DNA of 64,000 bases from an uncultured virus (IMG/VR IMGVR_UViG_3300045180_000051). Lineage: Duplodnaviria > Heunggongvirae > Uroviricota > Caudoviricetes. Under the pieces are notes generated by a model. That model saw only the letters and a program-made list of their open reading frames with translations. It had not been told where the DNA came from and ran no database searches. The stretch lies in IMG/VR virus record IMGVR_UViG_3300045180_000051, one strand, 5' to 3'. This document shows, in pieces, positions 47,842-63,551 of the stretch. Both the position numbers and the translations under genes were made by a program. Numbering within the stretch: the first letter of the stretch is position 1; every line of letters starts with the position of its first letter.

Positions 47842-47849
47842 GGATCGCC

Positions 47850-48242: not shown

Positions 48243-50863
48243 TGTTTTACATTCTGGCGATTTTATTCGCGCTGTTGGCAACACCAGCGGCGGCGGACCC
48301 TGTTTCTATTGTGACAGGTCTTGTTGGCCTTGGCTCGTGGCTGTTCGGCGGTACTGTCCTTGCAAACATTGTGCTTGGCGGACTTCTGGTCGCCGCAAAA
48401 TACGCGCTCACGTCAATCTTTCAGCAGACGCCCAAGTCTTCGGCATCTGCCACAGAAACCAAATATGGTGAAAATCTCGTCCGTGAAGTCGGCCTCGGCG
48501 TATTTGGCACAATGGGGCATCACGTCTATCGCAATGCATTCGGTAAGGGCAACCGAATGGTGCAGGACGTGTTCAAGCTTTCCGACTTCCGCTGTGTTGA
48601 GCTTTTGCGCGTGCAGATGGATGGCGAGTGGAAGAGCCTTAGTCCAACCGATCAAACCTATGGACGTAAACTTCTTAACGTCCACGAAGGTGGCGAAGTC
48701 TGGGTTCGCTTCTATCAGGGAACGATGCAGCAAGCTGCCGACCCTCAGCTAATTGCGAATTCTAATCCTTCGGGACGTTGGACTTCTGCGCATCGTGGGG
48801 CAGGTATCTGCTACGTCGTGGTTACGTCCCGCATGGAGGCCGATAATCTGACTTCGCCGCCGAGCCTTATGTTCGAGGTTCGTGGCGCTCCATTGTATGA
48901 CCCGCGAAAAGACAGCACGGTTGGTGGATCAGGAACTCAGCGCAGAAACAATCAGGATAGCTGGGCTTTCTCCGATAATCCTGCTGTCATGATGTATAAT
49001 CTTGAACTAGGCATCTACAACGGCACGGAAAAGATCGTTGGTCGAGGCGTTGCGCAGAGCCGTTTGCCTTTGTCTGAATGGTTCACCGCGATGAATATCT
49101 GCGATGAAGCCATGTCAGACGGTAGCAAGCGCTATACGGCAGCATTGATTGCTTCATCTGGCGACGGGGTTACGCACGAAACCAATATGACGCCACTGCG
49201 CGAAGCTTGTGCAGGATCTTGGATTGAAGGCGTGACAGGTGAGTATCCAATCGTCGGCGCTAATCAGGCAGTCGTTGCGACGATCACTGATGACGATATC
49301 GCTTGGGAGAAGTCTTTCCAGCTGTCGTTAACGCGCACCCGGACTGATCTGGTCAACACTGTTGCGGCTTCTTATGTCAGCCCAGACTTGTTTTATGAAA
49401 CCACGTCGCTCACCACGCGCGTTGATGCAGCTGCATTGGCTCAGGATCGCGAGCGACTGGCTTCCAAGGTGGATTACACTGCCGTCACTGATCCGCGAGT
49501 AGGCGACCGTCTGGCAGATATCGCGATCCGGGCCTCACGCTATCAGGCGAACGGCAACTTTACCGTGCATCCGAAGTTCCTTGGACTGCAGGTTGGCCAG
49601 TGGGTTCAATGGGTATCAGCTCGCTATAACCGCACGATCAAGTTTCAGGTTCATTCGAAAGCCCTTGGCGCAATGGGCAGCGACAGTGTTCGCGATGTTT
49701 CAATCTCGTGGCAGGAGGTTGGCGACGGTATCTTTGATCCGACAGCTTATGCAACAAATCCGCCTGTTCCAACGCCGAATGGCGATCCGGATTATCTTGC
49801 TGAGGTCCAAAACTTCAACGCCGTCGCTAACAAGGTAATTGGCGCTGATGGTCAAGAGCATCCCGGCATTCGGTTGTTCTGGGATGCGATTGACGACATC
49901 ACTGTCGAAGGTGTTGACATCCAGTATTGGCCCGACAATGACCCGTCACAGGTATTCTCGTCGTTCGTGACCAAAGATGTAACCGTCTTTCAGATCGTGA
50001 ATGGTCTGACGAGCATCACTGATTGGTGGGTTAGAACAAGGCTTAGGGTGGCTTCGGGCACTCGTCCTGTGGCTTGGTCTGCTGCAGTCAAGGTGGCAAC
50101 TCTCGACGCTCGACGCGAGGACAGCCCTGTCGATTTTCCGCGACTGGATGACGATGTCAAAGGCCTCGTTAACTACATGACAGATGACTTGCGTGAGTTC
50201 AAAAGGCAGGCGCAGGAAAACGCAACAACGTCGGCAAGTGGACTATTGGATGCGTATTCTAATGTCCAGACAATCAGACGTGAGCTTACGAACACGTTTG
50301 GAACGGCTAAAGCATCATGGCAGGAAGATATCTTAACTGCCACAGGCCCAAACAGCGCCATTGGGCAGCAACTAACGCAGATCAATGTAAGCCTTGGCAC
50401 GAAGGCCGATGCAAGCACTGTTGTACTTCTTCAGAGCCGAGTTGATGGCGTCCAAGGCGATATGACTGCCATTTCCAATGCGCTGACTGAGGTCAATGCG
50501 TCGGTCAACGATATCAACGCGAATGGATCTCTGCGCTTTACGGCCACGTCGGGGAGCGGCGGGGCTTCAAGTAGAATTGCTGCGTTAGCACGGGTTGGGA
50601 TCGGTGACAGTTGGAAGCAAGCCGGTTGGTTCGTAAATGTTACTCAAACTTCGAGCCAGTTTGTTGTCATTGCCAATCAGTTCGCCATCGCAGATCCGAA
50701 TACTGACGGCAGCTTCACGTATCCGTTTGTTGTCGAGAATGGACGTGTCGTGATGGAAAATATCGTTGTAGGGACCGTGAAGTTTAAACGGCTTCAGTCC
50801 GATAACAACAAATTCGACGCACGCGGCGATGGAAACAATGCGTATCTGAGGATTATCGTTTAA
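48242..50863 (+). CDS. Central tail fibre/host-specificity protein (gpJ-like)
   Basis: VRGAPLYDPR, SDNPA, C-terminal coiled coil and PFVVENG. Confidence 0.85.
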   Translation: MFYILAILFALLATPAAADPVSIVTGLVGLGSWLFGGTVLANIVLGGLLVAAKYALTSIFQQTPKSSASATETKYGENLVREVGLGVFGTMGHHVYRNAFGKGNRMVQDVFKLSDFRCVELLRVQMDGEWKSLSPTDQTYGRKLLNVHEGGEVWVRFYQGTMQQAADPQLIANSNPSGRWTSAHRGAGICYVVVTSRMEADNLTSPPSLMFEVRGAPLYDPRKDSTVGGSGTQRRNNQDSWAFSDNPAVMMYNLELGIYNGTEKIVGRGVAQSRLPLSEWFTAMNICDEAMSDGSKRYTAALIASSGDGVTHETNMTPLREACAGSWIEGVTGEYPIVGANQAVVATITDDDIAWEKSFQLSLTRTRTDLVNTVAASYVSPDLFYETTSLTTRVDAAALAQDRERLASKVDYTAVTDPRVGDRLADIAIRASRYQANGNFTVHPKFLGLQVGQWVQWVSARYNRTIKFQVHSKALGAMGSDSVRDVSISWQEVGDGIFDPTAYATNPPVPTPNGDPDYLAEVQNFNAVANKVIGADGQEHPGIRLFWDAIDDITVEGVDIQYWPDNDPSQVFSSFVTKDVTVFQIVNGLTSITDWWVRTRLRVASGTRPVAWSAAVKVATLDARREDSPVDFPRLDDDVKGLVNYMTDDLREFKRQAQENATTSASGLLDAYSNVQTIRRELTNTFGTAKASWQEDILTATGPNSAIGQQLTQINVSLGTKADASTVVLLQSRVDGVQGDMTAISNALTEVNASVNDINANGSLRFTATSGSGGASSRIAALARVGIGDSWKQAGWFVNVTQTSSQFVVIANQFAIADPNTDGSFTYPFVVENGRVVMENIVVGTVKFKRLQSDNNKFDARGDGNNAYLRIIV

Positions 50864-52404
50864 TGGTCAGTTGGTTTGTAGGTTGGAAACCGGGCGTGGG
50901 CGCGGTGATGAAAGTCAATAAATATGACAGTGATTGGCCGTTAGACGTCCCGAATGATGCTCATAACCGCTTCTATTTCAACTCGGAGGCAAGCAATCTT
51001 TCGTATGTTTTTCGCCATTTCCAGACAGCAAAACGGCTAAACAAAGCAGACTATCCCAACGGGAACTACGGTTTAGTTTCTAATTCCCTTAGCGATGCAT
51101 GGGTAATGCAGACGACGACAGGTTCATTCGATGTCAACGAATATCGGATCTACGGCTGCATAGGAAGGATGCCAGACCTCGGCGGGATAATACCGTTCGC
51201 CGAGTGCAAGTTTATATCCTCAGATGGAACTGCTCGCGTCCTTTACAATAACAAGCCGAGCAGTTCCGGCGCATATTATCAGTCTGTCACCAACTCAGCT
51301 ATTACAGCGAACGTCTATCCAGAAGCGCACCAAGGCAAATTCGGTTATCAGGATATTCCCGCGGCGCTTGGTTATTCAGGTTGGGCAATCAGACCGACCA
51401 ATCAAGCGGCCGGGATTGTTGCCTACATCGGCGGCGACCAGGAGTTCATGACGTCCATGATCTGGGATCTACCTTGCAATAATGTGCCGATACCCAGACC
51501 GAGCGGAACGCCTGTGAGCGGGCAAATCATGTTTGAAGCATCGCCCACTCGAATAAAGCTGGCAAGGCCGGGGTTTTCCATCGACACGGCTACGGGCCGA
51601 CAACTGATCATGGATAGCGACAGAACGCCGATCAAAGTGATCATGATGGGGACCACGGGAGCGGTGCAGCCCGGCACAAGTTTGTTTGTTCCGAAGCCAT
51701 CCTCAATCGACTTCGATCTCTCGCCATCGATGGTCTGTGACACGATCTGCAGCCTGAATGGTTGGGATTTTGCAATCCCTCCAGTCAACCTCAATAGCGG
51801 GCTAAACGAGGAAAGAACGTGGGTTGACTATCGTGTTGAGCTCGGTGGCATTCGTTTCTTTGTGACGGGAACGCACGCTGTTTCCATCAAATATATGCTC
51901 TATGCGACCGGGTTGCAGGGGTATTCATCTGGGGGCAGCGCTATAATCCGGAAGGTCGAAGGGCAATACCTGCAGATCAAACGACCGGGTTCGAGCGATG
52001 TGGCGCCCGGCTATAACGATATCCTTCTTGATACTCGCTTCGCAGCCGTTACCGTTCTCGCTGAAAGTTATGTACCAACGTCAAGCTTTACTGAAAGCGC
52101 TTCGGTGCATTGGCGATATGGCAAGGTTGGTCATCGGATAAACTTCGATCCTCAAGGCCTCTTTATCTTCCCGAAGGTCATTTATGATTTCGGCAATTTC
52201 TACCGCAACGGCACGCATGACATGTATATCACGCCGGGGAGTGGAGCTGTCGAAGCTTTGCGATACTCGACTTCAACCGTTGTGCGTGACGATCACATCA
52301 TCATGCATATGAACCCCGGAAACTCGTCGGGGCCAGTCAACAGCAGCGGTTTCCCTGAACCCGTCGGCGCTCGTTATTTCATCCTCGGAGCTGCAACGCT
52401 CTAA
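50863..52404 (+). CDS. Tail-associated protein
   Basis: 513 aa beta-rich, internally repeated RPG...D...L..D motif; coupled. Confidence 0.65.
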   Translation: MVSWFVGWKPGVGAVMKVNKYDSDWPLDVPNDAHNRFYFNSEASNLSYVFRHFQTAKRLNKADYPNGNYGLVSNSLSDAWVMQTTTGSFDVNEYRIYGCIGRMPDLGGIIPFAECKFISSDGTARVLYNNKPSSSGAYYQSVTNSAITANVYPEAHQGKFGYQDIPAALGYSGWAIRPTNQAAGIVAYIGGDQEFMTSMIWDLPCNNVPIPRPSGTPVSGQIMFEASPTRIKLARPGFSIDTATGRQLIMDSDRTPIKVIMMGTTGAVQPGTSLFVPKPSSIDFDLSPSMVCDTICSLNGWDFAIPPVNLNSGLNEERTWVDYRVELGGIRFFVTGTHAVSIKYMLYATGLQGYSSGGSAIIRKVEGQYLQIKRPGSSDVAPGYNDILLDTRFAAVTVLAESYVPTSSFTESASVHWRYGKVGHRINFDPQGLFIFPKVIYDFGNFYRNGTHDMYITPGSGAVEALRYSTSTVVRDDHIIMHMNPGNSSGPVNSSGFPEPVGARYFILGAATL

Positions 52405-52427
52405 CAATCCGAAAATCGGAGAATATA

Positions 52428-53612
52428 ATGGCTGTTTTGTCAGATTACACCTCTGGCAGGATTTCGCTCGCCAACGGTTCGGTTACTGTTACCGGCACCG
52501 GAACGCTGTTTAATGTTGCGAAATTCCGTGAAGGCGACACGCTACAAATTCAAAACCTGACAGCGGTCATTGCGAGTGTGAACAGCGATACCTCGCTGAC
52601 GCTTACAGCGCCGTGGACGGGGACAACTCTCACCAATGCTGTATATCGCGCTCGCTATCTTCCTGACGGTGCTCGTGTGACCGCCCAGGCAACAACTCTT
52701 ATTGAGCTTCTTGGGAATGGCAACCTGCAGTCGCTAGCTGGTCTGACGGGAGCCGCGGACAAAGGCATCATGTTCACAGGCGCGGGAACTGCCGGAACGT
52801 TTGATCTAAGTGAAATTGGACGGAGAATTGCGGCAATTACCGATGGCGTTTCATCGCAAATCATTCAGGGAGATGGAACGCGGGTTGCTAAATCATCTTT
52901 GCCAATTAGCGCTGCTACACAAACTGCCCTTGATGCTAAGGCACCGATAGCTACCCCTGTTTTTCAAGGTCAAACGGATATCTTGAGGGGTAGTTTACGT
53001 TTTCGTGGCGACCAAAACGTCAATCAAAATCTTATTGTTGTTCAGGAGTTTGGCACTCAACGATGGGGAATAGATTACGTCTATACTGACCAGTCTCTCC
53101 GAATTCAAGCTTTTACGGGAGGCACTTGGACGGGTGAAGCGGTCATTTTCAGACCCAACAAAAGTGTAGCTTTTCTTGGAACAATCTCAAAGGCTGGCGG
53201 CACTTTCGAAATTGATCACCCGTTGGACCCCTTCAACAAAAATCTGCGCCATGGATTTGTTGAAAGTACGGAATATGTGAACATTTATCGCGGTATGGTC
53301 GATCTTGTTGATGGGCGAATGTCTGTCGATATTGATGCTGCTTTCGGCATGACGGATGGAACCTTCGCAGCGCTCAACGCTGACGTGATAGTTTCATCAT
53401 TGCAAAACCAGTATGGGCCGGATCGCGTATGGGTCGAGGCTCCAGCCGACAGCGGCAAATTCACCATTATCTGTGAAGATACGGAAAGCACGGCAACTAT
53501 CGCTTGGATGGTGACTGGACGCCGTAATGATGCCTTTGTGCGTTCTGATCTCGATCCGAATACCGACAGTGAAGGCCGGTTCATTCCAGAGTTTGACAAG
53601 GAGGATGCATAA
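52428..53612 (+). CDS. Tail fibre with C-terminal chaperone-like domain
   Basis: GSVTVTGTGTLF, LAGLTGAADK, FEIDHPLDP...LRHGFVES. Confidence 0.8.
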   Translation: MAVLSDYTSGRISLANGSVTVTGTGTLFNVAKFREGDTLQIQNLTAVIASVNSDTSLTLTAPWTGTTLTNAVYRARYLPDGARVTAQATTLIELLGNGNLQSLAGLTGAADKGIMFTGAGTAGTFDLSEIGRRIAAITDGVSSQIIQGDGTRVAKSSLPISAATQTALDAKAPIATPVFQGQTDILRGSLRFRGDQNVNQNLIVVQEFGTQRWGIDYVYTDQSLRIQAFTGGTWTGEAVIFRPNKSVAFLGTISKAGGTFEIDHPLDPFNKNLRHGFVESTEYVNIYRGMVDLVDGRMSVDIDAAFGMTDGTFAALNADVIVSSLQNQYGPDRVWVEAPADSGKFTIICEDTESTATIAWMVTGRRNDAFVRSDLDPNTDSEGRFIPEFDKEDA

Positions 53613-54094
53613 TGTCCGTAACGCAGCAGGTTCCAGACTTGTCAGGTCTGGGAAAAAAAGGTCTGCCGATGCATTACCAAGCGTTCGGTATCGAACCGCC
53701 TATGAAGACCGTTCCGGTTGAAGATGGCGAACCTGTCACCGACAACCCCGGCATGACGATACCAGAGTACGTAGCGGCAAAGCGCTGGGAGGCAGAGGTC
53801 GGTGGAATTGAGGTTGATGGATTGCTCATAGCTACCGACGATCGCTCAAAGATGATGATCTCAGGCGCTCGCGTTGCTGCACAGGGAAATCCAGAATTTT
53901 CCACTCAATGGAAAACGGCGACGGGAGAGTTTCTTATGGTCGACGCTGCAACAATCATCGCAGTTAGCGATGCTGTTCTCGATCATGTCGCCCAGTGCTT
54001 TGCTGTTGAAGCTTCAATCACAGCAGATATTAAAACGGGCGTCGATTTCACGTTCGCGGATATTGATGAAATCTTTGCTCGCCATTTTCCCTAA
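53612..54094 (+). CDS. DUF4376-like tail fibre assembly protein
   Basis: KRWEAEVGGI...TDDRS...WK...HVAQCFAVE. Confidence 0.8.
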   Translation: MSVTQQVPDLSGLGKKGLPMHYQAFGIEPPMKTVPVEDGEPVTDNPGMTIPEYVAAKRWEAEVGGIEVDGLLIATDDRSKMMISGARVAAQGNPEFSTQWKTATGEFLMVDAATIIAVSDAVLDHVAQCFAVEASITADIKTGVDFTFADIDEIFARHFP

Positions 54095-54125
54095 CTGACA
54101 GACCGCACCGCCCTTGAGGCGGTTT

Positions 54126-54224
54126 TCACACCCTGCGCCATATCCAAAAGCAGAGAGCAAGAGCAAGTAGCGCTATAATCGCCAGCAGCGCGATGTTGTC
54201 TTCCATAACGTCAATCAGAAACAT
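54126..54224 (-). CDS. 32-aa hydrophobic peptide MFLIDVMEDNIALLAIIALLALALCFWIWRRV
   Basis: GGAGGGG RBS; single TM helix with basic tail. Confidence 0.55.
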   Translation of the reverse strand: MFLIDVMEDNIALLAIIALLALALCFWIWRRV

Positions 54225-54266
54225 TTGCCCCTCCACTTATCGCGCTAAGTATAACGGGCAATTGTG

Positions 54267-55065
54267 AAAGAAAAACCCCAGACACCGGCGGGGGGGCTGG
54301 GGTTGCACCGCCTCTATAGCCCCCGCAAGGCGAGTGCAACCGTCCTTTACCATAAGGTAAAATATTAACAGTCCCTACTTTGTGATTAGATCTCACAAAA
54401 AAACCCCGATCTGCTTGGGGGCTGTACCGGGGTCTGCGCTTTGTTGCCTTTGGGGTGCAACATTGCGCCTGTTCATCATTTCAGAATGTGGCGGAAAAGA
54501 AAAGCCCCGGCATGTGGAATGAAGGATAGCACGAGCCGGGGCTTGCGCATCAACGGGCATGCAGTTGTCTCAGCGCGCAATCTCAATAGCAAAAAATGCA
54601 AGAAATAAAACCCCGGCAGGATCGCACAACCATGCCGGGGTTGCGTTCAAAAGCAATTATCAGGACCCGTTGAACGCAGCCTCTAAATTAGCAACGGCTA
54701 TACAAAAAGAAAAGCCCCAGAGGCGCTTGAAATCTCTGGGGCCTGACCCGGCAGGCGGGCAGCCATGAACCGGGGTTACTCACGTTACATTCAAGCGGGG
54801 GCTGTGATGCCGTGAATAAGCAACGAATTAGCGCCCATGTTTTCAACGTCAAGGGCGGAAAAATAAAACCCCAGCTCGTGGGTAATCATTCCGAGCTGGG
54901 GCTTATCACTGGTGCAACACGAGCAACTGCTTCGATACAGTGAATGGTTAGAAACTAGGGCGGAAAAATGATGAGGCAAGATCAGATAAAAACCCCGGCC
55001 AGCGGGGGCTGAACCGGGGCCGCGCACCGGGATTGAAGCTGAGGAGCTCGGGACGGCGCGCAGGC
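54267..55065 (-). ncRNA. Tandem array of seven putative two-hairpin sRNAs
   Basis: Units at ~54267, 54397, 54495, 54603, 54704, 54859 and 54988, each a 5' hairpin plus a CCCC(A/G)G...GGGG hairpin and U-tract. Confidence 0.7.
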
Positions 55066-55102
55066 AAATATTCTCACAACCTTATGAAAAGGCAATGCTT
55101 CG

Positions 55103-55768
55103 CTAGAACTTGTAAGCAATGCCGAGTGTAGCGGTATGTTGGCTTAGACGGCGAGCCCAATCCCTAACAAGATCTTGTTTGCCGAAGTCGTTGTAACGAT
55201 ATGCAACGCGACCGATGATGTTTTGTGTGATTGCCCAATCCGCTCCAGCGCCAATGTTCCAGCCATTTCTGTCTATATCTGACTTGGCGTATGAAGAAAG
55301 ATAACCCGGAGTGACGGCATCGCTCATTAGGCTAAACCAGCCCCGTGAGTATCCAGCAGTGATGTAGGGCAGATACTGTCCGAAGGCGTAGCCAAGGCGT
55401 CCATTGACCGACGCTGTCGCTTTTGACCGAAATCTCTCTTGGAAATAAGCATCGTCACTTGCGGTGTTTAACACCCAAGGAAGTTTGTCAGCTTTGAATT
55501 CGCCGCCTGTGAATTCTACGGAAACTTCTGGACCGAATACCCACTGGCCATGTTGGAAATTGTATCCGACATAGCCGCCACCTGTGACGTTAGCGCCGTC
55601 CGCACTGTAATATTGGTTCCAAATATCAAACGGTGTGTCTGTCTTCGCTTTAGACCATCTCGCACCGATGCTCACGCCCCCATAGATGCCGGACCAGTCA
55701 AATGTCTCGGCAACAGCGGTGTTCGTCCACGCGGCAGCGACAACGGTAACAATAAGTAAATGCTTCAC
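55103..55768 (-). CDS. Omp25/Omp31/RopB-family outer-membrane beta-barrel (lysogenic conversion)
   Basis: Signal peptide, DWSGIYGG, GGYVGYNFQ, RLGYA, C-terminal GIAYKF. Confidence 0.9.
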   Translation of the reverse strand: MKHLLIVTVVAAAWTNTAVAETFDWSGIYGGVSIGARWSKAKTDTPFDIWNQYYSADGANVTGGGYVGYNFQHGQWVFGPEVSVEFTGGEFKADKLPWVLNTASDDAYFQERFRSKATASVNGRLGYAFGQYLPYITAGYSRGWFSLMSDAVTPGYLSSYAKSDIDRNGWNIGAGADWAITQNIIGRVAYRYNDFGKQDLVRDWARRLSQHTATLGIAYKF

Positions 55769-55840
55769 AGAAATCTCCCCAAGCCTGCCCAGCGCGGAGA
55801 GTATGACGAGAATTTCAAATCTGCAACTCTAAGAAAGTAA

Positions 55841-55927
55841 ATCGAAAAGGCTGCCGTCACTAAAGCGATACCGCATGTCTTCACGGATGAAGGCGACTAC
55901 GTTTACAACCCGAAAGACCCGGGCGGC
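55841..55927 (+). pseudogene. Remnant of a GH108-type endolysin N terminus
   Basis: Translates KAIPHVFTDEGDYVYNPKDPGG (cf. EGGYVNHPxDPGG); no start codon, no continuation. Confidence 0.55.
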
Positions 55928-55971
55928 GTAGTGCCCGGCTGCACAATCTTCTTTTTTGTCTTAGCGAAAAA

Positions 55972-56331
55972 TTATTCGCACTGATACCGGGCCTCATACT
56001 GCGGCTCGAAGACAAGAGAAATGTCGTTAACCCGACAGGTGCGGCCCTTTGATGCTAGGAATGCTTCTGCCGCATCACGGTAGACCACTTCGGCGTTCAT
56101 TGGATTGTAGGCTCCGAACGTTGCTCCTTTAACAACTCCACCTCCAAAGGAAGCGCCTAAGGTGGGAGTTATCATTAAGCGGTTTTCAGTCGGCTTATCG
56201 TAAATCCGATATCCAGTGCCTGATGGCGCTGTATACGACACCGGCTTAACGCTCGAATAGTGCTGCATAGCATAGTTCGCACCTGCGCATCCCGTCAGCG
56301 CTAGCAGCGCCACAATTCCCAAACGTTTCAT
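55972..56331 (-). CDS. Lipoprotein (moron)
   Basis: MKRLGIVALLALTGC lipobox. Confidence 0.75.
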   Translation of the reverse strand: MKRLGIVALLALTGCAGANYAMQHYSSVKPVSYTAPSGTGYRIYDKPTENRLMITPTLGASFGGGVVKGATFGAYNPMNAEVVYRDAAEAFLASKGRTCRVNDISLVFEPQYEARYQCE

Positions 56332-56372
56332 TCCCGCCCTCACAAGTTGTGGCGGCAATCTAGGACAATCAA

Positions 56373-57236
56373 ATGAACAAAACAACGTTCTTCGCGTATG
56401 CGAGGCGCGCGCCTTTTGGCGGCCGTTTGAGCCAGGCTCAGGTTGATGGCACATCGGCTATCTTGGCCGAAGCCGAGCGCCGCAATTTACCCGACGAGCA
56501 GACCGCCTATATCCTTGCGACTGTCTTTCATGAGACTGGCGGCAAGATGCAGCCGGTCATCGAGAATCTGAACTACACCAGTGCGGCGCAAATTCGGAAG
56601 ACATGGCCAAAGCGCTTTTCGTCAATCGCATCGGCCCAGCCATATGTTCGCCAGCCTCAAAAGCTCGCTAATAAGGTCTATGGCGGCCGCATGGGTAACG
56701 ACAGCGTTAATGACGGCTGGACTTATCGCGGGCGAGGCCTGCCTCAGATTACAGGCGAGGACAACTACAAGAAGTTCGGTATTGCCGATGCGCCAGAGAA
56801 GGCGCTGGAGTTAGCCACGGCAATCCGTATCCTCTTTGAAGGCATGGTGCTGGGCAAGTTCACTGGGCGCAAGCTGAGTGACTTTTTCGGCAAGGGCAAA
56901 ACAGATCCTGAAGGCGCGCGTGTCATCGTCAACGGCACCGACAAGGCCACGCTGATCTCCGGCTATTATCGCAACTTCCTAGACAGCCTGATTGCTGCGC
57001 GGGAAATGAAGGCCGCTGCTCCTGATGACGCCAAGCCTGACGACGTGCCTTTGCTCAAGGATAAGACGGTGCAGACCATCGTCGCAGCTGGTGGCGGTAC
57101 GTTCTTGACTGGCCTTATCAGCGCCGTGTCGAACCCGTGGGCATTCTTGACAGTCGCACTAGTGCTCGTCGCCATCGGTGGCGGTTTCTGGCTCTGGCAT
57201 ACAGACAGGCTCGAACTGAAGAGGGTGGCGGCGTGA
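56373..57236 (+). CDS. GH19-type endolysin with C-terminal TM segments
   Basis: HETGG, ENLNY, ANKVYGGRMGN, YRGRGLPQITG. Confidence 0.9.
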   Translation: MNKTTFFAYARRAPFGGRLSQAQVDGTSAILAEAERRNLPDEQTAYILATVFHETGGKMQPVIENLNYTSAAQIRKTWPKRFSSIASAQPYVRQPQKLANKVYGGRMGNDSVNDGWTYRGRGLPQITGEDNYKKFGIADAPEKALELATAIRILFEGMVLGKFTGRKLSDFFGKGKTDPEGARVIVNGTDKATLISGYYRNFLDSLIAAREMKAAAPDDAKPDDVPLLKDKTVQTIVAAGGGTFLTGLISAVSNPWAFLTVALVLVAIGGGFWLWHTDRLELKRVAA

Positions 57237-57417
57237 GGATCGTAATTGATTACGATGCTGATGCGCAGACTGCTGAAGTCGCGATTGGCGAAAAGGTCCA
57301 GTGTTGGACCGGTGTGCACCTAACGCTCGCGCAAGGCATCACCGAAACTCGCGATGGGTATCTGATCCGCCGCGAATGCGACGGTTCGAAGTCCTTGCTT
57401 CTTACAGGAGAGTAAGC

Positions 57418-57654
57418 ATGACCTTCCTCCTAGCACTTCGCTCCAAGTTGACAGGCTACGCCGTTGCTCTGAGCGCGGCGTTGGCCGTCCTTGTCAGCGC
57501 GTACCTCAAAGGCCGGTCCGACAGCAAAACAGCTCAGGCCGCGCGCGAAGCACAATCGGCAACCAAAGCACGGAAGATAGAAAATGAAGTCAGCCGTCTT
57601 GATGACAGCGCTGTTGACGCTCGGCTTGCTAAGTGGATGCGCGACAAGCGGTAA
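57418..57654 (+). CDS. i-spanin (Rz-like)
   Basis: N-terminal TM plus coiled coil; overlapped by a lipoprotein ORF. Confidence 0.7.
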   Translation: MTFLLALRSKLTGYAVALSAALAVLVSAYLKGRSDSKTAQAAREAQSATKARKIENEVSRLDDSAVDARLAKWMRDKR

Positions 57655-57769
57655 CTATTGCGATGTGGCGGGGGTGATCTACGCCAGCCACGACGACACG
57701 TCAGAAACCAAGCGCCAGATCCTGGCCGAGAATGAGAAAATGGAAAAGCTGTGCGGGGTACGGCCTTGA
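57584..57769 (+). CDS. o-spanin lipoprotein (Rz1-like)
   Basis: LLSGC lipobox, overlapping frame. Confidence 0.7.
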   Translation: MKSAVLMTALLTLGLLSGCATSGNYCDVAGVIYASHDDTSETKRQILAENEKMEKLCGVRP

Positions 57770-57771
57770 GG

Positions 57772-57954
57772 TCAGTTGCCCAAAGGCTCAGTCACTCCCG
57801 GGGTTTGCTCTTTCGGCATGAACGCCCGTCTCTCTTCGTATTTCACGATGAAGACTATAGCTGCCAGTGCAACAATCACCGGCACCGCGATGCATAAAAC
57901 CCGCAGAACCGCACCGAAGATTTCTCCAATCAAACTGTTCGATACCTGTCTCAT
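57772..57954 (-). CDS. Small membrane protein (moron)
   Basis: Hydrophobic segment. Confidence 0.45.
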   Translation of the reverse strand: MRQVSNSLIGEIFGAVLRVLCIAVPVIVALAAIVFIVKYEERRAFMPKEQTPGVTEPLGN

Positions 57955-58033
57955 GCCGCAATCATATCAGCAAAGACCTTAAGCGAACACAAAGGGGCAC
58001 ATTAACTATGTTTAATCTAAAGAGAAACGAAGC

Positions 58034-58369
58034 ATGACCGGACCTGAAATCATGGGCGTTGTCGGCTTCATCGTGATGCTCTTTGGCTTTTTGTTTGGCC
58101 TTTGGAAGTACGTCGACAGCAAGATCAACGCTGCGAGAAATGAAACGGCCGCCAAAGCCGAAGCAGCCACAGCGCTCGCCGCACTGACGCGGCAGGAGCT
58201 GTCAGACTATAAGCTACGTGCGGCTGAGACCTTCGCCACAAAGGCCGGGATGCAGGAACAGACCTCGCAGATCATGCGCGCCATTGAAAGCGTCGCAAAC
58301 CGCATCGACGGACTCACCGAGCGCATGGATCGTGTGTTTGAGCAGAAGACAACGCGGGCTAGGGGGTGA
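58034..58369 (+). CDS. Membrane-anchored coiled-coil protein (holin/lysis-associated candidate)
   Basis: One N-terminal TM helix; lysis module context. Confidence 0.6.
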   Translation: MTGPEIMGVVGFIVMLFGFLFGLWKYVDSKINAARNETAAKAEAATALAALTRQELSDYKLRAAETFATKAGMQEQTSQIMRAIESVANRIDGLTERMDRVFEQKTTRARG

Positions 58370-58374
58370 GCGAT

Positions 58375-59139
58375 TCAGTTGGGCGCGGTAAAACGACGGA
58401 AGGATGGCGTCACATGATCTTCGCGATCCTTCTCAAGCATTCGCAACATGTTTTCACCGTACCCTGGCACCGCATAAACACTTATCGTTCTAATATTGTT
58501 CTTCCCCAGTCCAGTCTTTAGGTAGTGCTCACTAACAGCTGTCGGACGTGGAGGACGTGGCGACAGTATTTCAATAAAGCAGCCTCCGAACATAAACGTA
58601 AGGTTTACGCCATTCTTGTTTCGGAGGATGCGTGGCGAAAGCATTATCTTTGCTAAATTGACGTCATTGCCGTGAATATGATCAAATAATCGGCTTATTC
58701 TCACGGCATAATGAGCCAATGACTTGTGTGAATTATCCGAAAAAAGAGATTTGATTTGATCCTCGTGATGACGGGATAATTTGAAATTCTGATAAAACTC
58801 AGCGTCACTTTTACTGGCTCGCCAAGCAACTGATAACATTGCACGAGAAATTGAACGAGCGTCGTTAGCACATATAGTTCGTTGTCTATCTAATTTTTCA
58901 ATAATTTGCTGCAGTGGTATATCAAAATTGACATTGAAATGGCTCTCACATTCAGCGCAGAGCATCGGGCAGTCACCGCTAGCTTGCGTTACGCTATTTG
59001 GAGAGTTGTCAGTTTTATATTTTACTGCCTGACCATTACTCTTTGCGGATCGAAAATAGCTGTTGGGAATTGCATGTGATCTGGAGAGCTTTTTCTCTTG
59101 CTGGCAAAATGCGCAAACTCCGATTGTCGCCTTCGACAT
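58375..59139 (-). CDS. AT-rich accessory protein with N-terminal HNH-like Zn motif
   Basis: CAFC...SHAIP...LCAECE. Confidence 0.65.
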   Translation of the reverse strand: MSKATIGVCAFCQQEKKLSRSHAIPNSYFRSAKSNGQAVKYKTDNSPNSVTQASGDCPMLCAECESHFNVNFDIPLQQIIEKLDRQRTICANDARSISRAMLSVAWRASKSDAEFYQNFKLSRHHEDQIKSLFSDNSHKSLAHYAVRISRLFDHIHGNDVNLAKIMLSPRILRNKNGVNLTFMFGGCFIEILSPRPPRPTAVSEHYLKTGLGKNNIRTISVYAVPGYGENMLRMLEKDREDHVTPSFRRFTAPN

Positions 59140-59258
59140 GCAAATCCCCCCCCCCGAATCCTAAATTTCACCCATCATACTTGACGCCCCTTTCACTTCC
59201 ACCACAATGACAAATTGCGGGCCACCAACCCGCAAACCAATCAACACGAGGAGACTGT

Positions 59259-59543
59259 ATGTCCGAACAGGCACAGGGCGCGGGTGCGCGCGTAAATACG
59301 GGTGGGCCTGCCCATCCATTCCTTACATGGCAAAATCCGCAAGGGTTCCGTATAGGCAGTCTTCATGAAGGTCTGACGATACGTGATCATTTTGCGGGGC
59401 AGGCGTTGCAAGGTCTTATTGGCGGATCGCACCATGAGATGGCGACCTTCGCAGAGACGAACAATACAACAATCGTAAAGGTGGCCGCCTCGTTAGCTTA
59501 CGCATACGCCGACGCCATGATCGTTGCCAGAGGTGCCGCGTGA
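59259..59543 (+). CDS. Small phage protein (GGPAHP...GLTIRDHFAGQALQG)
   Basis: ACACGAGGAG RBS; related to 7972..8202. Confidence 0.7.
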   Translation: MSEQAQGAGARVNTGGPAHPFLTWQNPQGFRIGSLHEGLTIRDHFAGQALQGLIGGSHHEMATFAETNNTTIVKVAASLAYAYADAMIVARGAA

Positions 59544-60253
59544 GTAAGACTTTTGCAGTCGCCGACCTTCACGGACGATACGATCTATTGCTGGCCGCAA
59601 TCGAACGCATCGAACAAAGCAGCCACTCTGGTGGCACCATTGTATTCATGGGCGATTACGTTGACCGTGGGCCGCAAAGCGCACAGGTCATTGAACGACT
59701 GATGCAAGGGCCGGATGACCCGAAACGCTGGAAATGGGTATGTTTGCAGGGAAATCATGAAGAGATCATGTTGACCTGCCTTTTCGCCACTGGCCTCGCG
59801 GGCTCGTATTGGATGCCGAACGGTGGCGGCGCGACACTTCTGTCGTACGGAGCAAAGGAAGGCGGATCTATATCCTCAGCGCTCACGCTTGTTCCACAGT
59901 CGCACATCGATTGGCTTAAAGCCCTGCCTATGATCCACTTGGATGAGCATCGTGTGTTCGTTCATGCCGGCGTTGACGAGACTATCCCGCTCGATAAGCA
60001 GACGAAACAGACCATGCAATGGATGCTGTATCCAGATGGATATGAAGGCGGGCATCGCGAAAGGCACGTTGTTCATGGCCATCATCAATTTGAAGATGGC
60101 CCGTTGCTATTTTCAGGACGCACTGACCTCGACACCTTCGCTTGGTATACCGGCCGTCTAGTGGTCGGCGTGTTCGACGACAGTAAGCCCGGCGGCCCGG
60201 TCTCCACGATTGAGATCAAAGGCCCGTCAATACACGAGCTTCGAGGACAATAA
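59540..60253 (+). CDS. Ser/Thr protein phosphatase-like metallophosphoesterase (lambda PP/NinI-like)
   Basis: ADLHG, GDYVDRG, GNHE, VHAG, HGH. Confidence 0.9.
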   Translation: MSKTFAVADLHGRYDLLLAAIERIEQSSHSGGTIVFMGDYVDRGPQSAQVIERLMQGPDDPKRWKWVCLQGNHEEIMLTCLFATGLAGSYWMPNGGGATLLSYGAKEGGSISSALTLVPQSHIDWLKALPMIHLDEHRVFVHAGVDETIPLDKQTKQTMQWMLYPDGYEGGHRERHVVHGHHQFEDGPLLFSGRTDLDTFAWYTGRLVVGVFDDSKPGGPVSTIEIKGPSIHELRGQ

Positions 60254-61507
60254 ATGCTTTCCAAACAAGAACTAGCCCGCCGTGTTGCTGCATATCAGCA
60301 GCACGGCACGATAACGAAGGCTGCGCACGCGTGCGGCGTCAAGAAGTCTGCATTTCACGACAGCATCAAACGCGCGGCTGAGCTCGGGCTGATGGGTCCG
60401 AAAGAAACGCTGCCCGGTTATACAATCAAAAGCCTGACCGAGACGCCGAACGGCACGTACATGCGCCAGACGAAAGAGGCTGGCCCTGTCTACGAAGCGA
60501 CTGCCGGTCTAGCGGTTAAAGGCAAGACGACGCTCGTTAACAGCGAAGGGCGCATCGTCACGCAGCACATCATGGAACGTGCGGACGCCGACCAACAGCG
60601 TGCAGCAATCACGGCCATGGTTGAAGCACTAAAAGAAGATTTGCCGCGCGTTTCGATTATGCCGGCGCCAAAGGGGTGTCGCGAGGATCTGTTGAATCAG
60701 TTCACGATCACTGACAACCATTTCGGCATGATGTCGTGGCGCGAAGAAACTGGCAGCGATTACGATCTGCGGATTGCCGAGCAGCTATTGCTTGATTGGT
60801 TCTCTGCGGCTGTGGCACAGGCTCCCGACGCTCACACGGCCATTCTGGCGCAGTTGGGCGACCTTATGCATCACGATGCGCTTGAAAGCGTCACGCCTGC
60901 CCACAAGCATGTTCTGGACGCTGACAGCCGCCTGCAGAAAGTCATTCGCATTGTGATCCGAACGATCCGCCGCATCATTGATATGCTTTTGCAGAAGCAC
61001 GAGCGCGTTCATGTCGTGATGGCTTCGGGGAATCACGACCCGGCCTCATCCGCATGGCTTCGTGAGATGCTCGCCGTTATGTATGAAGACGAACCTCGCA
61101 TCACTGTCGATAATTCACCGTCGCTCTATTACGCATTCGAGTGGGGCAGCACGATGCTTGCCTATCATCACGGGCACAAGCGAGGAGTCGCAAATATCGA
61201 GGGCACGATTGCTGGCATGTTCCGTGGAATGTTTGGCCGCTCGCTACACGCCTACGTGCATATCGGACACCGACACAGCGACGATGCCAGAAAAGGCACG
61301 CTGATGTATGTCGAGCAGCATGAAACGCTCGCAGCACCAGACGCTTATGCCGCTGGCGGTGGGTGGCTGTCTGGTCGATCAGCTAAACGGATAACCTATA
61401 GCAAGCAGTTTGGTGAAGTCGGTCGCGACATTCTCCGGCCCGAGATGGTCGCAGGGAAGTATGCGGCATCTAATGATAATGCGAAAAGTCAAAGGGCTGC
61501 AGCCTAA
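60254..61507 (+). CDS. HTH-fused calcineurin-like metallophosphoesterase
   Basis: N-terminal HTH; TDNH, GD, GNHD, HHGH, GHRH. Confidence 0.8.
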   Translation: MLSKQELARRVAAYQQHGTITKAAHACGVKKSAFHDSIKRAAELGLMGPKETLPGYTIKSLTETPNGTYMRQTKEAGPVYEATAGLAVKGKTTLVNSEGRIVTQHIMERADADQQRAAITAMVEALKEDLPRVSIMPAPKGCREDLLNQFTITDNHFGMMSWREETGSDYDLRIAEQLLLDWFSAAVAQAPDAHTAILAQLGDLMHHDALESVTPAHKHVLDADSRLQKVIRIVIRTIRRIIDMLLQKHERVHVVMASGNHDPASSAWLREMLAVMYEDEPRITVDNSPSLYYAFEWGSTMLAYHHGHKRGVANIEGTIAGMFRGMFGRSLHAYVHIGHRHSDDARKGTLMYVEQHETLAAPDAYAAGGGWLSGRSAKRITYSKQFGEVGRDILRPEMVAGKYAASNDNAKSQRAAA

Positions 61508-61510
61508 CCG

Positions 61511-63092: not shown

Positions 63093-63105
63093 GTCACGAC
63101 CAGGG

Positions 63106-63185
63106 AAAGCCCCGGCACGAGAGGTGTGATCGGGTTGCCGGGGCTGCGCTTCGCGTGGACCCAGCTTCCTGTCACGAAGCGCGGC
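63106..63185 (-). ncRNA. Solo copy of the two-hairpin sRNA unit
   Basis: GCGCTTCG...CGAAGCGC then AGCCCCGGCA...TGCCGGGGCTTT; TGaTAGAAT just upstream. Confidence 0.55.
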
Positions 63186-63546: not shown

Positions 63547-63551
63547 TCAGG

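What the first reader, a model, noticed from the sequence alone, without database searches (positions are those of the whole stretch)
54267..55065. Tandem array of seven two-hairpin small-RNA units with conserved scaffold and variable loops
Seen: 800 bp without a credible gene, between the tail fibre module and the Omp gene, resolves on the minus strand into seven units of ~75-90 nt (54267-54342, 54397-54469, 54495-54580, 54603-54680, 54704-54779, 54859-54947, 54988-55065). Each is a 5' hairpin directly followed by a (A/G)CCCC(A/G)G...GGGG hairpin and a U-tract. Stem ends are conserved while loops differ. The spacers contain -10-like elements (e.g. TGcTAATTT, TGtGAGAAT, CTTG...CTAGTT), suggesting separate transcripts. 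A CAGCCCCC loop motif recurs in units 1, 2 and 7. Known analogy: the prophage anti-sRNAs of EHEC, which pair a conserved terminator with a variable seed. Inference: a modular sRNA or sponge cassette expressed in the lysogen, each unit with its own target. I know of no description of such an array in alphaproteobacterial prophages.
Basis: partly seen in the sequence, partly recalled or inferred. Interest (0 to 1): 0.88.

Follow-up and report, generated by a model that had tools for sequence, protein, structure and literature searches.

The report
Prophage array of seven small-RNA genes
A prophage of an Ochrobactrum-type bacterium carries, between its tail-fibre and lysis genes, a row of seven short hairpin-forming units that look like separately transcribed small regulatory RNAs; related prophages share and reshuffle this layout, but expression has not been shown.

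Summary
On the minus strand of 54267-55065 there are seven units. Each ends in a (A/G)CCCC(A/G)G...C(C/U)GGGG hairpin plus U-tract, and most have a 5' hairpin abutting it. No ORF there matches Pfam or PHROGs, and no Rfam family matches. The array sits in the moron slot of a siphovirus-like prophage of the Ochrobactrum/Brucella group, on the strand of the CI-like repressor and opposite all lytic operons.

Endolysin-anchored relatives (74 sources searched) carry 1-9 such units at the same place and on the same strand. The 5' stems covary: 6 of 10 pairs in an 11-sequence MAFFT alignment. The sense strand folds better than the antisense strand. Promoter hexamers stay fixed while their 16-nt spacers diverge. 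5' modules and terminators reassort between phages.

My reading is a modular array of independently transcribed sRNA genes, probably using C-rich apical loops, at confidence about 0.55. Expression and targets are untested, because the RNA-labelled public runs covered the whole phage evenly.

- Unit 5 is about 116 nt with three hairpins.
- Three of the seven 5' hairpins are no more stable than shuffles.
- An eighth unit lies at 63103-63183.
- Small membrane-peptide genes travel with the units.

I class it as a new variant of a known kind (prophage and multicopy sRNAs).

The parts
54986..55063 (-). Unit 7. The 5' hairpin GCGCGCCG...CGGUGCGC has a CUCCUC apical loop. The terminator CCCCGG..CCGGGG has a CAGC-CCCC-GCUG tip and a U-tract. 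It also serves as the only terminator of the omp gene upstream.
   Evidence: R1 E 0.01; R2 43.2 bits; z -4.37; 5' hairpin z -3.97
55070..55078 (-). Extended -10-like element TGTGAGAAT in front of unit 7
   Evidence: It is conserved as TTGTGAGA in L019 although the DNA further upstream differs.
54860..54946 (-). Unit 6: a weak 5' hairpin (UCACUG...CAGUGA) and a 13-bp terminator stem with a 13-nt loop
   Evidence: 19.6 bits; z -4.84; 5' hairpin z -0.31. The terminator stem shows A-U to G-C compensation against L019.
54953..54980 (-). Promoter-like CTTGCC-N16-CTAGTT of unit 6
   Evidence: Both hexamers are identical in L019. The 16-nt spacer keeps its length but differs at 9 of 16 positions.
54704..54819 (-). 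The first carries an AGC-CCCC-GCU tip. The second is CCCCGG..CCGGG without a U-tract. The third is the terminator.
   Evidence: 3' part, 22.9 bits; z -3.41
54826..54853 (-). Promoter-like CTTGAC-N16-CTAATT of unit 5
   Evidence: CTTGAC is identical in window, L019 and L061. The spacers diverge at fixed length 16. The -10 reads CTAATT / CTAGCT / CTAGTT.
54603..54678 (-). Unit 4: a 9-bp 5' stem UGCGUUCAA...UUGAACGCA abutting the terminator
   Evidence: R1 E 0.013; 39.3 bits; z -4.40. It is nearly identical in L013 and L061.
54685..54693 (-). Extended -10-like TGCTAATTT of unit 4
   Evidence: GTTGCTAATT is invariant in 4 of 4 aligned phages.
54495..54577 (-). Unit 3: a short 5' stem GCGC...GCGC and a terminator with a 23-nt loop (CUAUCCUUCAUUCC)
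   Evidence: E 0.28; 35.9 bits; z -2.97; 5' hairpin z +0.57
54583..54591 (-). Extended -10-like TGCTATTGA of unit 3
   Evidence: sequence reading only
54396..54470 (-). Unit 2: 5' hairpin GCGC..GUUGC..GCAAC..GCGC and a terminator whose loop holds CAGCCCCCAAG
   Evidence: E 0.6; 28.9 bits; z -4.47; z -2.93
54475..54483 (-). -10-like TGAAATGAT of unit 2
   Evidence: sequence reading only
54267..54355 (-). Unit 1. The 5' hairpin GUUGCAC...GUGCAAC has an apex holding GCGGGGGCU, the complement of the AGCCCCCGC motif of units 7 and 5. The terminator is CCCCAG..CUGGGG.
   Evidence: E 0.065; 32.7 bits; z -2.2. The whole-unit z is only -0.48.
54362..54370 (-). Extended -10-like TGTTAATAT of unit 1 (an alternative, TCTAAT, lies at 54385-54390)
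   Evidence: sequence reading only; the start of unit 1 is uncertain
63103..63183 (-). Eighth, solitary unit of the same family, with TGATAGAAT at 63189-63197 in front of it
   Evidence: R1 E 0.016; 35.6 bits; z -3.87
55103..55768 (-). Moron gene for an outer-membrane beta-barrel protein, directly upstream of the array on the same strand
   Evidence: PF13505, E 7.8e-15
54126..54224 (-). A 32-aa single-helix membrane peptide ORF with RBS GGAGGGG, directly downstream of the array on the same strand. Peptide genes of this kind lie in the same slot of related loci, and one of them is a close variant of this peptide.
   Evidence: No family was found.

Best explanation
The 800 bp is a tandem array of seven separate small-RNA genes carried as morons by a temperate siphovirus-like phage of the Ochrobactrum/Brucella group.

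Each unit has three parts:
- its own sigma-70-type promoter, either CTTGAC-N16-CTAnTT or an extended -10 of the TGnTAnnnT kind;
- a body of about 75-116 nt that folds into a 5' hairpin standing directly on a second hairpin;
- an intrinsic terminator formed by that second hairpin, (A/G)CCCC(A/G)G...C(C/U)GGGG plus a U-tail.

The units lie on the strand of the CI-like repressor, opposite all lytic operons, so they would be made in the lysogen without late transcription. Unit 7 would also form the 3' end of the omp mRNA.

The conserved terminator base and U-tail give the RNA its 3' end and a chaperone-type handle. The variable, G-poor and C-rich apical loops of both hairpins are the likely contact sites. 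They include CUCCUC, the AGC-CCCC-GCU tip and CCUUC. They would pair with G-rich ribosome-binding regions of host, phage or rival-phage mRNAs and block translation, as in other multicopy sRNAs with C-rich loops.

Phages exchange whole units, and also 5' modules and terminators, at the conserved junctions, so each prophage carries its own set.

Shown here: the anatomy, strand specificity, covariation, promoter footprints, reshuffling and distribution. Inferred: transcription, stability, chaperone use, base-pairing and targets.
For: Anatomy and excess over chance.

Not coding and not a known RNA.

Context:
- Tail genes run on the + strand up to 54094, and endolysin plus spanin follow on + from 56373.
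- The CI-like repressor is on the - strand at 10633-11403, while the replication, packaging, head and tail genes identified are on the + strand.

Same place and strand in relatives. With model R1, which contains no window sequence, 131 matches at E<=1 were found in 74 sources (737 kb). 128 are on the strand opposite the endolysin. 2 of the 3 others are in L003, which is oriented the other way round.

Covariation:
- In an 11-sequence MAFFT alignment of one subfamily, 6 of the 10 pairs of the 5' helix have compensatory changes. 93.9% of cells are paired against 29-53% when partners are slid, and 0 of 500 shuffles reach the covariation score.
- On the model-fitted alignment of 104 distinct sequences, 16 of 18 pairs show changes on both sides and 97.3% of cells are paired.

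RNA-level strand asymmetry. The sense strand folds better than the antisense strand in 50 of 71 unique units (Wilcoxon p 8e-6). G-U pairs are 189 of 1650 in sense against 87 of 1526 in antisense.

Promoters:
- 30 of 56 units have a -10-like hexamer in the 23 nt upstream (background 0.21; AT-matched 0.32).
- 20 of 56 have an extended -10 (background 0.065 / 0.088; p 3e-8).
- In window versus L019 and L061, the hexamers of units 6 and 5 are conserved while the 16-nt spacers diverge at fixed length.

Modularity. 135 instances give 36 distinct array orders, 53 5'-module clusters and 37 terminator clusters. 6 5' clusters pair with more than one terminator cluster and 14 terminator clusters pair with more than one 5' cluster. 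A chimeric unit occurs in L008/L013. The alternative junction appears as loose ends at 54747/54783 in three runs.

Loops:
- Composition is C 30% and G 16%. CCC lies in an unpaired stretch in 35 of 71 units, against GGG in 4 of 71.
- AGCCCCCGCU occurs in the RNA sense in 19 of 85 loci.

Precedent that both a 5' loop and a terminator loop with C-rich motifs bind a ribosome-binding site: LhrC (PMC4132741, passages read).
Against: - No transcript evidence. The three RNA-labelled runs cover the whole 20 kb evenly, at depths like the DNA run, so they say nothing.
- No target was found. The longest complementarity to the rest of the window is 13 nt (E 0.64), and there is none of note in related loci.
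- Three of the seven 5' hairpins (units 6, 5, 3) are no more stable than shuffles, and unit 1 as a whole has z -0.48.
- 26 of 56 units lack a -10-like hexamer by my rule. The promoter calls for units 3, 2 and 1 are consensus reading only.
- The widest covariation count is on an alignment fitted to the structure, and model R2 contains window units.
- The subfamily with the cleanest covariation (A3) has no member in the window.
- Conserved terminator stems could reflect recombination rather than RNA function.
Confidence: 0.55

Rival explanations
1. Moron punctuation. The units are promoter and terminator boundary elements left behind by repeated insertion and loss of small moron genes. Their job, if any, is to insulate the tail operon from antisense transcription. 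Any short RNAs made are by-products without a trans function.
For: - The same CCCCGG..CCGGGG terminator type, with short loops, ends the small peptide genes in the same region.
- Some units directly follow coding genes and serve as their only terminator: the omp gene in the window and the two-peptide operon in L017, L027 and L071.
- The array faces the convergent tail operon.
- Several 5' hairpins are weak.
Against: - The 5' hairpins covary while their apical loops stay conserved.
- Promoters inside an insulator would defeat it.
- Arrays of up to 9 units occur with no ORF between them.
- Units 4 and 5 are kept nearly identical between phages whose tail protein J is only 52% identical.
Confidence: 0.2
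2. Partners of the small membrane peptides. The units are antitoxin-like or otherwise regulatory RNAs that hold down translation of the hydrophobic peptides (27-48 aa in my scan) encoded beside them, as in type I toxin-antitoxin systems.
For: - My scan found 54 small hydrophobic ORFs with an RBS (34 distinct sequences) on the same strand in the same region of related loci, often alternating with units.
- One such ORF lies at 54126-54224 with RBS GGAGGGG, which C-rich loops could cover.
- Units and peptides also occur together in a chromosomal remnant, L087.
Against: - RNA and peptide genes lie on the same strand, so there is no cis-antisense overlap.
- No complementarity longer than 13 nt exists anywhere in the window.
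- Toxicity of the peptides is unknown, and they match no family.
- Some arrays have many units for one peptide.
Confidence: 0.1
3. Protein decoys. The repeated hairpin-plus-U-tail modules act by titrating an RNA-binding protein, either an RNA chaperone or a host defence sensor, rather than by base-pairing.
For: - Many copies of one scaffold occur per prophage, and several prophages per genome: up to 14 matches in one genome.
- The conserved part is the terminator base and U-tail, the part that chaperones are known to hold. The Hfq-binding module paper was seen only as an entry in the reference list of PMC4104026; otherwise this is recalled.
Against: - The loops and 5' modules are diverse, yet conserved within each type. 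A pure decoy would not need that.
- No defence-system protein lies nearby: 6 neighbouring proteins were scanned in PADLOC, and the only match is a weak LeoB hit at E 0.0023.
Confidence: 0.08
4. DNA-level element: a REP/MITE-like repeat, or a set of protein or recombination sites, that works as DNA and not as RNA.
For: - The units are palindromic, clustered and found on mobile DNA.
- Assembly graphs break at the shared segment 54747-54783.
- Modules reassort at conserved junctions.
Against: - Only 13-31 pattern matches occur per 4.4-5.5-Mb genome, and the long-loop ones sit in a few clusters.
- Orientation is strictly one-stranded, with U-tracts on one side only.
- There is an excess of G-U pairs and better folding in the sense strand.
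- TRF finds no repeat.
- Terminal inverted repeats and target-site duplications were not tested. No transposase was seen among the window genes I annotated.
Confidence: 0.05

Closest known systems
Prophage anti-sRNAs of EHEC (AgvB, AsxR; Tree et al. 2014, PMC4104026, passages read)
   Same: - Carried in a moron site of temperate phages.
- Homologous copies have a highly conserved 3' region and variable 5' ends.
- They end in intrinsic terminators.
- Several copies per genome arise through several prophages.
   Different: - The EHEC RNAs are 51-60 nt, sit in convergent pairs 3' of PR', and are found in enterobacteria.
- Here the units are 75-116 nt and lie in same-strand tandem rows of up to 9 between tail-fibre and lysis genes.
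- Here the terminator loop varies as well.
- Sponge activity against core sRNAs is untested here.
Pas sRNAs of pathogenic E. coli prophages (Zhu, Shabalina, Storz, bioRxiv 10.64898/2026.05.13.724894; abstract and passages read)
   Same: - Prophage-borne sRNAs next to capsid or tail genes.
- A 3' stem-loop plus U-tract.
- Conserved 3' parts with divergent 5' parts.
- Copy number driven by multiple prophages.
   Different: That paper reports that most prophage regions hold a single Pas gene (2,751 regions) and that the copies are not tandem duplicates. Here tandem rows are the rule.
LhrC1-5 of Listeria monocytogenes (Sievers et al. 2014, PMC4132741; abstract and passages read)
   Same: - A multicopy sRNA with two stem-loops.
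- C-rich motifs sit in the 5' loop and in the terminator loop, and both bind a G-rich ribosome-binding region.
- The RNA is poor in G.
   Different: - LhrC is chromosomal, in a Gram-positive host, and its copies are near-identical, under one regulator, with a UCCC motif.
- Here the units are phage-borne and highly diverged, with motifs such as AGCCCCCGCU and CUCCUC.
- No target is known here.
ar14 / 'cuckoo' / CcsR RNAs of alphaproteobacteria (Rfam RF02344; properties recalled, not read here)
   Same: - Alphaproteobacterial.
- Often in tandem copies.
- C-rich loop motifs.
- One true ar14 copy lies elsewhere in this same prophage at 22472-22597(-).
   Different: The array units do not match RF02344 at any threshold used. 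As I recall, CcsR RNAs are cut from the 3' end of one transcript rather than having a promoter each.
NsiR1 of cyanobacteria (Rfam RF02399; tandem-array property recalled)
   Same: A row of short units, each with its own promoter and terminator. It gives the best sRNA-type Rfam scores for units 6 and 5 (18.0 and 15.6 bits).
   Different: The scores are far below the gathering score of 39 and rest on the terminator alone. The organism and context are unrelated.

Membership tests
Independently transcribed bacterial sRNA gene (generic class) | Intrinsic terminator: a G+C-rich stem followed by a U-tract | tested here: met
   Seven of seven units. Whole-unit z is -2.97 or lower in 6 of 7.
Independently transcribed bacterial sRNA gene (generic class) | Own promoter | tested here: inconclusive
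   There are consensus matches at all seven units. Enrichment across the family is 30 of 56 for -10-like and 20 of 56 for extended -10. Hexamer-conserved, spacer-diverged footprints exist for units 6 and 5. No transcription start data.
Independently transcribed bacterial sRNA gene (generic class) | No protein-coding potential | tested here: met
   The 7 longest ORFs in the array gave no Pfam or PHROG match at E<0.01.
Independently transcribed bacterial sRNA gene (generic class) | Conserved secondary structure with compensatory changes | tested here: met
   MAFFT alignment of a subfamily without window members; model-fitted alignment that includes window units.
Independently transcribed bacterial sRNA gene (generic class) | A discrete transcript is detected | not testable with these tools
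   The RNA-labelled runs are kept as contigs and cover the whole phage evenly.
Any Rfam family (ar14, NsiR1, C4 antisense RNA and others) | Covariance-model score at or above the gathering score | tested here: not met
   The best scores in the array are 15.6-20.6 bits against gathering scores of 39-55. Nothing falls on arrays in 7 related loci.
EHEC anti-sRNA family | 51-60 nt RNAs in convergent pairs 3' of PR', homologous 3' regions | tested here: not met
   The units are 75-116 nt, all on one strand, and lie between tail-fibre and lysis genes. The features are taken from PMC4104026. Sequence homology was not tested directly.
REP / MITE-type dispersed repeat | Many copies dispersed genome-wide | tested here: not met
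   There are 13-31 pattern matches per genome in 5 genomes, and the long-loop ones are clustered. At most 14 model matches occur per genome in 41 genomes.
REP / MITE-type dispersed repeat | Terminal inverted repeats and target-site duplications | not tested
   No such analysis was run.
Type III toxin-antitoxin RNA array (ToxI-like) | Near-identical short direct repeats next to an endoribonuclease toxin gene | tested here: not met
   TRF finds no repeat in the array. Mean column identity among units is 34%. No PADLOC match in the neighbours apart from a weak LeoB hit (E 0.0023) on one ORF.
Type I toxin-antitoxin system | A small hydrophobic peptide gene beside the RNA | tested here: met
   ORF 54126-54224(-). 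My scan found 54 small hydrophobic ORFs (34 distinct) in related loci. Toxicity is unknown.
Type I toxin-antitoxin system | Extended complementarity between the RNA and the peptide mRNA | tested here: not met
   No match longer than 13 nt in the window.

The most novel reading that the evidence does not exclude
The arrays are a recombining cassette system for regulatory RNA. The conserved promoter and the CCCCRG/CYGGGG terminator boundaries are the crossover points at which co-resident prophages swap 5' hairpins and terminator loops. Each prophage thereby fields its own, fast-changing set of C-rich-loop sRNAs. These would silence G-rich ribosome-binding sites, including those of the small membrane peptides that travel with them (a trans-acting, type-I-like toxin control) or those of rival phages, making the array a weapon in prophage-prophage competition.
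Probability: 0.15. Interest if true: 0.8.

Novelty: new variant of a known kind. Interest (0 to 1): 0.6.

Why it matters
Prophage-encoded sRNAs are known mainly from enterobacteria, and there they occur as single genes. Here a whole RNA family with no Rfam entry appears in tandem rows of up to nine diverged units. It was found in 31 of 41 sampled species of the genus that holds L068.

If the units are expressed, three things follow:
- They would be a compact natural example of modular sRNA evolution, with a fixed scaffold and exchangeable loops and 5' modules.
- They would be a new layer of lysogenic conversion in the Ochrobactrum/Brucella group.
- The link with many tiny membrane-peptide genes would give a testable lead to new toxin-control or phage-exclusion functions.

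Tried and rejected
- Expression from public runs. 24 runs hold the stretch, 6 of them labelled RNA. I laid three RNA-labelled runs and one DNA run on 44001-64000. All 30 bins are covered in all four runs at similar depth, and the data are contigs, so no verdict on transcription is possible.
- DNA similarity of the array to deposited phages and plasmids: no match. The closest deposited phage by endolysin is Sinorhizobium phage phi2LM21 at 50% identity. It has the same gene order but no unit at E<0.1.
- Whole-genome tools for the window: no assembly is held and no relatives are drawn for a virus record. I worked through loci instead.
- Long antisense targets: none in the window (maximum 13 nt) and none in related loci outside the arrays (one search covered one strand only, another the other).
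- Complement of the conserved apical loop of subfamily (a), searched in 5 genomes with up to 3 mismatches: one hit, not followed up.
- RNAduplex between unit 1 and the other units: full-length duplex energies are no better than shuffles, so the method was unsuitable (one search timed out).
- Rfam searches, tandem repeats and tRNAs: nothing in the array.
- Earlier findings of this scan: three look-ups, nothing held.
- Supplementary files of the papers were not opened. Lists of EHEC and Pas sRNA sequences in them might allow a direct sequence comparison, which I did not make.
Full report
OBSERVATION

Read on the minus strand, 54267-55065 contains seven hairpins of the form (A/G)CCCC(A/G)G-loop-C(C/U)GGGG, each followed by a U-tract. 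A strict scan puts the stems at 54276-54302, 54404-54432, 54505-54541, 54611-54640, 54715-54741, 54869-54901 and 54993-55019, with loops of 11-23 nt. The built-in consensus scan accepts loops of 3-8 nt only and so lists just units 7 and 1. Its total of 6 sites in 2.5 kb against 2.8 expected is therefore not the relevant test.

The relevant numbers are these. The pattern occurs 0 times on the plus strand of the 64-kb window and twice elsewhere on the minus strand. It occurs 13-31 times per genome in five host-type genomes of 4.4-5.5 Mb, with 0 for the reversed-pattern control.

Direct-repeat analysis finds the shared A-tract plus CCCC(A/G)G ends (families D1-D6). Tandem Repeats Finder finds nothing in the array. 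The units are alike in shape, not in sequence: mean column identity is 34% over 56 units.

Of 23 ORFs of 20 aa or more overlapping 54100-55100, the 7 longest lying in the array have no Pfam or PHROG match at E<0.01. There is no tRNA. No Rfam family reaches its gathering score; the best scores are 15.6-20.6 bits against 39-55.

Folded from their predicted starts, the units give z-scores of -4.37, -4.84, -3.41, -4.40, -2.97, -4.47 and -0.48 for units 7 to 1. Taken alone, the 45 nt upstream of each terminator give -3.97, -0.31, -0.2, -1.7, +0.57, -2.93 and -2.2. The 5' hairpin is therefore clear in units 7, 2 and 1, moderate in unit 4 and weak in units 6, 5 and 3.

CONTEXT

The window is a virus record. 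The gene map is as follows.
- A CI-like repressor lies on the minus strand at 10633-11403.
- The replication, packaging, head and tail genes identified lie on the plus strand. They include the tape-measure protein, a J-like fibre protein at 48242-50863 and fibre genes up to 54094.
- A minus-strand block follows: a 160-aa ORF (56454-55972), an outer-membrane beta-barrel gene (55768-55103; PF13505, E 7.8e-15), the array, and a 32-aa membrane-peptide ORF (54224-54126).
- Endolysin and an Rz-like spanin then follow on the plus strand.

The array is thus in a moron slot, on the repressor's strand and opposite every lytic operon. Unit 7 begins 40 nt after the omp stop codon with no terminator in between, so it would also end the omp mRNA.

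RELATIVES AND DISTRIBUTION

The endolysin retrieved 58 viral-contig loci and 19 genome loci. The genome titles name Brucella pseudogrignonensis, B. rhizosphaerae, B. pituitosa, Ochrobactrum spp., Falsochrobactrum and others.

One phage (L008/L013) has a 95% identical endolysin but only a 52% identical J protein. It has no omp gene and carries nine strict-pattern units at the same place, two of them nearly identical to window units 4 and 5.

A covariance model (R1) built from 11 units of other phages gave 131 matches at E<=1 in 74 sources (737 kb). 128 are on the strand opposite the endolysin, and 2 of the 3 others are in L003, which is oriented by its omp gene. R1 finds window units 7, 4, 1, 3 and 2, and also 63103-63183.

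The wider model R2 contains window units in its training set, and its E-values are rough. In the window, with filters off, it gives eight hits at E<0.002. All are on the minus strand: seven in the array and one at 63103-63183.

In whole genomes:
- 31 of 41 sampled species of the genus of G002 (the genome holding L068) have a match at E<=1e-4, with up to 14 per genome.
- In a sample of 151 genomes of its family, 68 have a match at E<=0.001. Only G002 (9) and G106 (5) have more than three.
- These tallies include one unpublished genome (G084) and one access-limited genome (G158).

Three further clusters were inspected:
- One lies behind tail-fibre genes of another prophage (L088).
- One lies beside a SocA/Panacea gene (L089).
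- One is a remnant that holds units plus the same small peptides next to chromosomal genes (L087).

The family is therefore genus-wide and clustered. It sits mostly in prophage moron regions and is not a dispersed REP/MITE-type repeat.

IS THE STRUCTURE SELECTED, AND AS RNA?

I aligned one subfamily with MAFFT: 11 sequences, none from the window, with the conserved apical loop AACCUU..GACGYGACUGG. In this alignment 6 of the 10 pairs of the 5' helix show compensatory changes. 93.9% of cells pair, against 29-53% when partners are slid by 1-3 columns, and 0 of 500 shuffles reach the observed covariation score.

On the model-fitted alignment of 104 distinct sequences, 16 of 18 pairs have changes on both sides and 97.3% of cells pair. 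That alignment leans towards the structure.

The sense strand folds better than the antisense strand in 50 of 71 unique units (mean difference -3.2 kcal/mol, Wilcoxon p 8e-6). It holds 189 G-U pairs in 1650 against 87 in 1526. This is the expected signature of an RNA read from the minus strand rather than a DNA palindrome. Base-composition skew could contribute to it.

PROMOTERS

Upstream of the seven units lie TGTGAGAAT, CTTGCC-N16-CTAGTT, CTTGAC-N16-CTAATT, TGCTAATTT, TGCTATTGA, TGAAATGAT and TGTTAATAT, at coordinates checked. The CTTGAC-N16/17-CTATAT consensus for alphaproteobacteria is recalled, not read here.

Across 56 two-hairpin units, 30 have a -10-like hexamer in the 23 nt upstream (background 0.21; AT-matched 0.32). 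20 have an extended -10 (background 0.065 / 0.088; p 3e-8).

The best evidence is comparative:
- Between the window and L019, the -35 and -10 hexamers of unit 6 are identical while the 16-nt spacer differs at 9 positions and keeps its length.
- For unit 5, CTTGAC is identical in three phages, the 16-nt spacers differ, and the -10 reads CTAATT, CTAGCT or CTAGTT.
- In the same alignment the terminator stem of unit 6 changes A-U to G-C on both sides.

Promoter calls for units 3, 2 and 1 rest on consensus reading alone.

MODULARITY

135 unit instances give 36 distinct array orders. Clustering gives 53 kinds of 5' module and 37 kinds of terminator. 6 5' kinds occur with more than one terminator kind, and 14 terminator kinds with more than one 5' kind.

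The window shares its first four units with L019 and units 5 and 4 with L013 and L061. Units 2 and 1 have 5' modules seen nowhere else in the set.

L013 carries a chimera of the 5' part of window unit 6 and the 3' part of unit 5, joined at GUGAGUAACCCCGG. That same alternative junction appears as loose ends at 54747/54783 in three of the four laid runs.

LOOPS AND LIKELY MODE OF ACTION

Unpaired stretches are C 30% and G 16%. 35 of 71 units have CCC unpaired, against 4 with GGG.

The 8-mer GCCCCCGC and its complement occur three times in the 64-kb window, all inside the array. It appears in the RNA sense in the terminator tip of unit 7 and the first hairpin of unit 5, and as the complement at the apex of unit 1's 5' hairpin. 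AGCCCCCGCU occurs in the RNA sense in 19 of 85 loci. Unit 7 also shows CUCCUC in its 5' apical loop.

This is the layout of sRNAs that cover G-rich ribosome-binding sites. In LhrC both the 5' loop and the terminator loop do so (PMC4132741, passages read).

I therefore commit to the following reading. These are independently transcribed small RNAs, made in the lysogen, that act by loop-mediated pairing. The conserved terminator and U-tail serve as 3' end and chaperone handle. The first half of that statement (separate functional RNA genes) I put at about 0.55. The pairing mechanism is inferred only, and I found no target.

RIVALS

- Leftover moron punctuation or an insulator (0.2). This fits the shared terminator type and the units that end coding genes. 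It does not fit the covariation, the internal promoters or the conservation.
- Partners of the small membrane peptides (0.1). This fits the striking co-occurrence: my scan found 54 small hydrophobic ORFs (34 distinct) in this slot of related loci. It lacks any extended complementarity.
- Protein decoys (0.08).
- DNA-level elements (0.05).

COMPARISON WITH WHAT IS KNOWN

What it works like: the EHEC prophage anti-sRNAs (conserved 3', variable 5', moron site; PMC4104026), the Pas sRNAs beside capsid and tail genes (preprint) and LhrC.

It differs from all three in being a same-strand tandem row of diverged units that recombine module by module in alphaproteobacterial prophages. The Pas paper states that its genes are mostly single per prophage and not tandem.

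Tandem sRNA rows as such are known: ar14/CcsR and NsiR1 (recalled). A true ar14 copy sits elsewhere in this prophage, but the units match neither model.

The paper on temperate Ochrobactrum phages marks Rho-independent terminators on its maps. In the passages I searched it says nothing about RNA genes or such an array (PMC5492332).

Six literature searches found no description of this family. They cover open-access papers and bioRxiv only, and supplements were closed.

VERDICT

This is a new RNA family in a new arrangement of a known kind. Interest is moderate to high but hinges on expression data.

Noticed in passing
window 54126-54224 (-); related loci, e.g. L017 2286-3207, L013 4111-4206: The same moron slot holds many tiny ORFs on the array strand (27-48 aa in my scan; 54 ORFs, 34 distinct), nearly all with one hydrophobic helix and many with a basic C-terminus. 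They often alternate with the RNA units. None matches a family. They could be type-I-toxin-like or exclusion peptides.
   Followed up: partly
window 63103-63183 (-): A solitary eighth unit of the same two-hairpin family lies far from the array, with TGATAGAAT in front of it. Its loop ACACCUCUCGUG recurs in other genomes.
   Followed up: partly
window 22472-22597 (-): A full ar14 (RF02344) sRNA match (70.8 bits) lies inside the phage's replication module, on the strand opposite the surrounding genes. This is a second kind of sRNA moron in the same prophage.
   Followed up: no
L014 6695-6789, L017 7203-7324, L024 6883-6977, L027 6858-6974 (-): Sub-threshold ar35-like matches (34.7-39.5 bits against a gathering score of 45) lie downstream of the lysis genes in four related prophages. 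In two of them they are next to cspA-thermoregulator-like matches.
   Followed up: no
window 56373-57236 versus 48242-50863: The endolysin is 95% identical to that of L008, while the J-like fibre protein is only 52% identical. The lysis cassette and the RNA array seem to travel together across different tail modules. The endolysin ends in a hydrophobic segment.
   Followed up: partly
window 54175: All three RNA-labelled runs read G where the window and the DNA run X2 read A. In each run this rests on one contig, about 52 nt from its end. It is probably a strain variant, and it lies inside the small peptide ORF.
   Followed up: no
window 54113, 54747, 54783: Contigs of several runs break here and continue into other sequence. 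The samples therefore hold at least one related phage with a different fibre end and a different unit order.
   Followed up: partly
window 32042-32114, 32139-32210 (+); 4486-4558 (+): Two adjacent tRNA genes lie just upstream of the terminase genes, and a third lies near the left end of the window.
   Followed up: no
L087 3038-3612 and 15610-16931 (-): Four tandem units plus the two-peptide operon lie among ordinary chromosomal genes. Two more units lie behind an autotransporter gene. This looks like a remnant of the moron region outside an intact prophage.
   Followed up: partly
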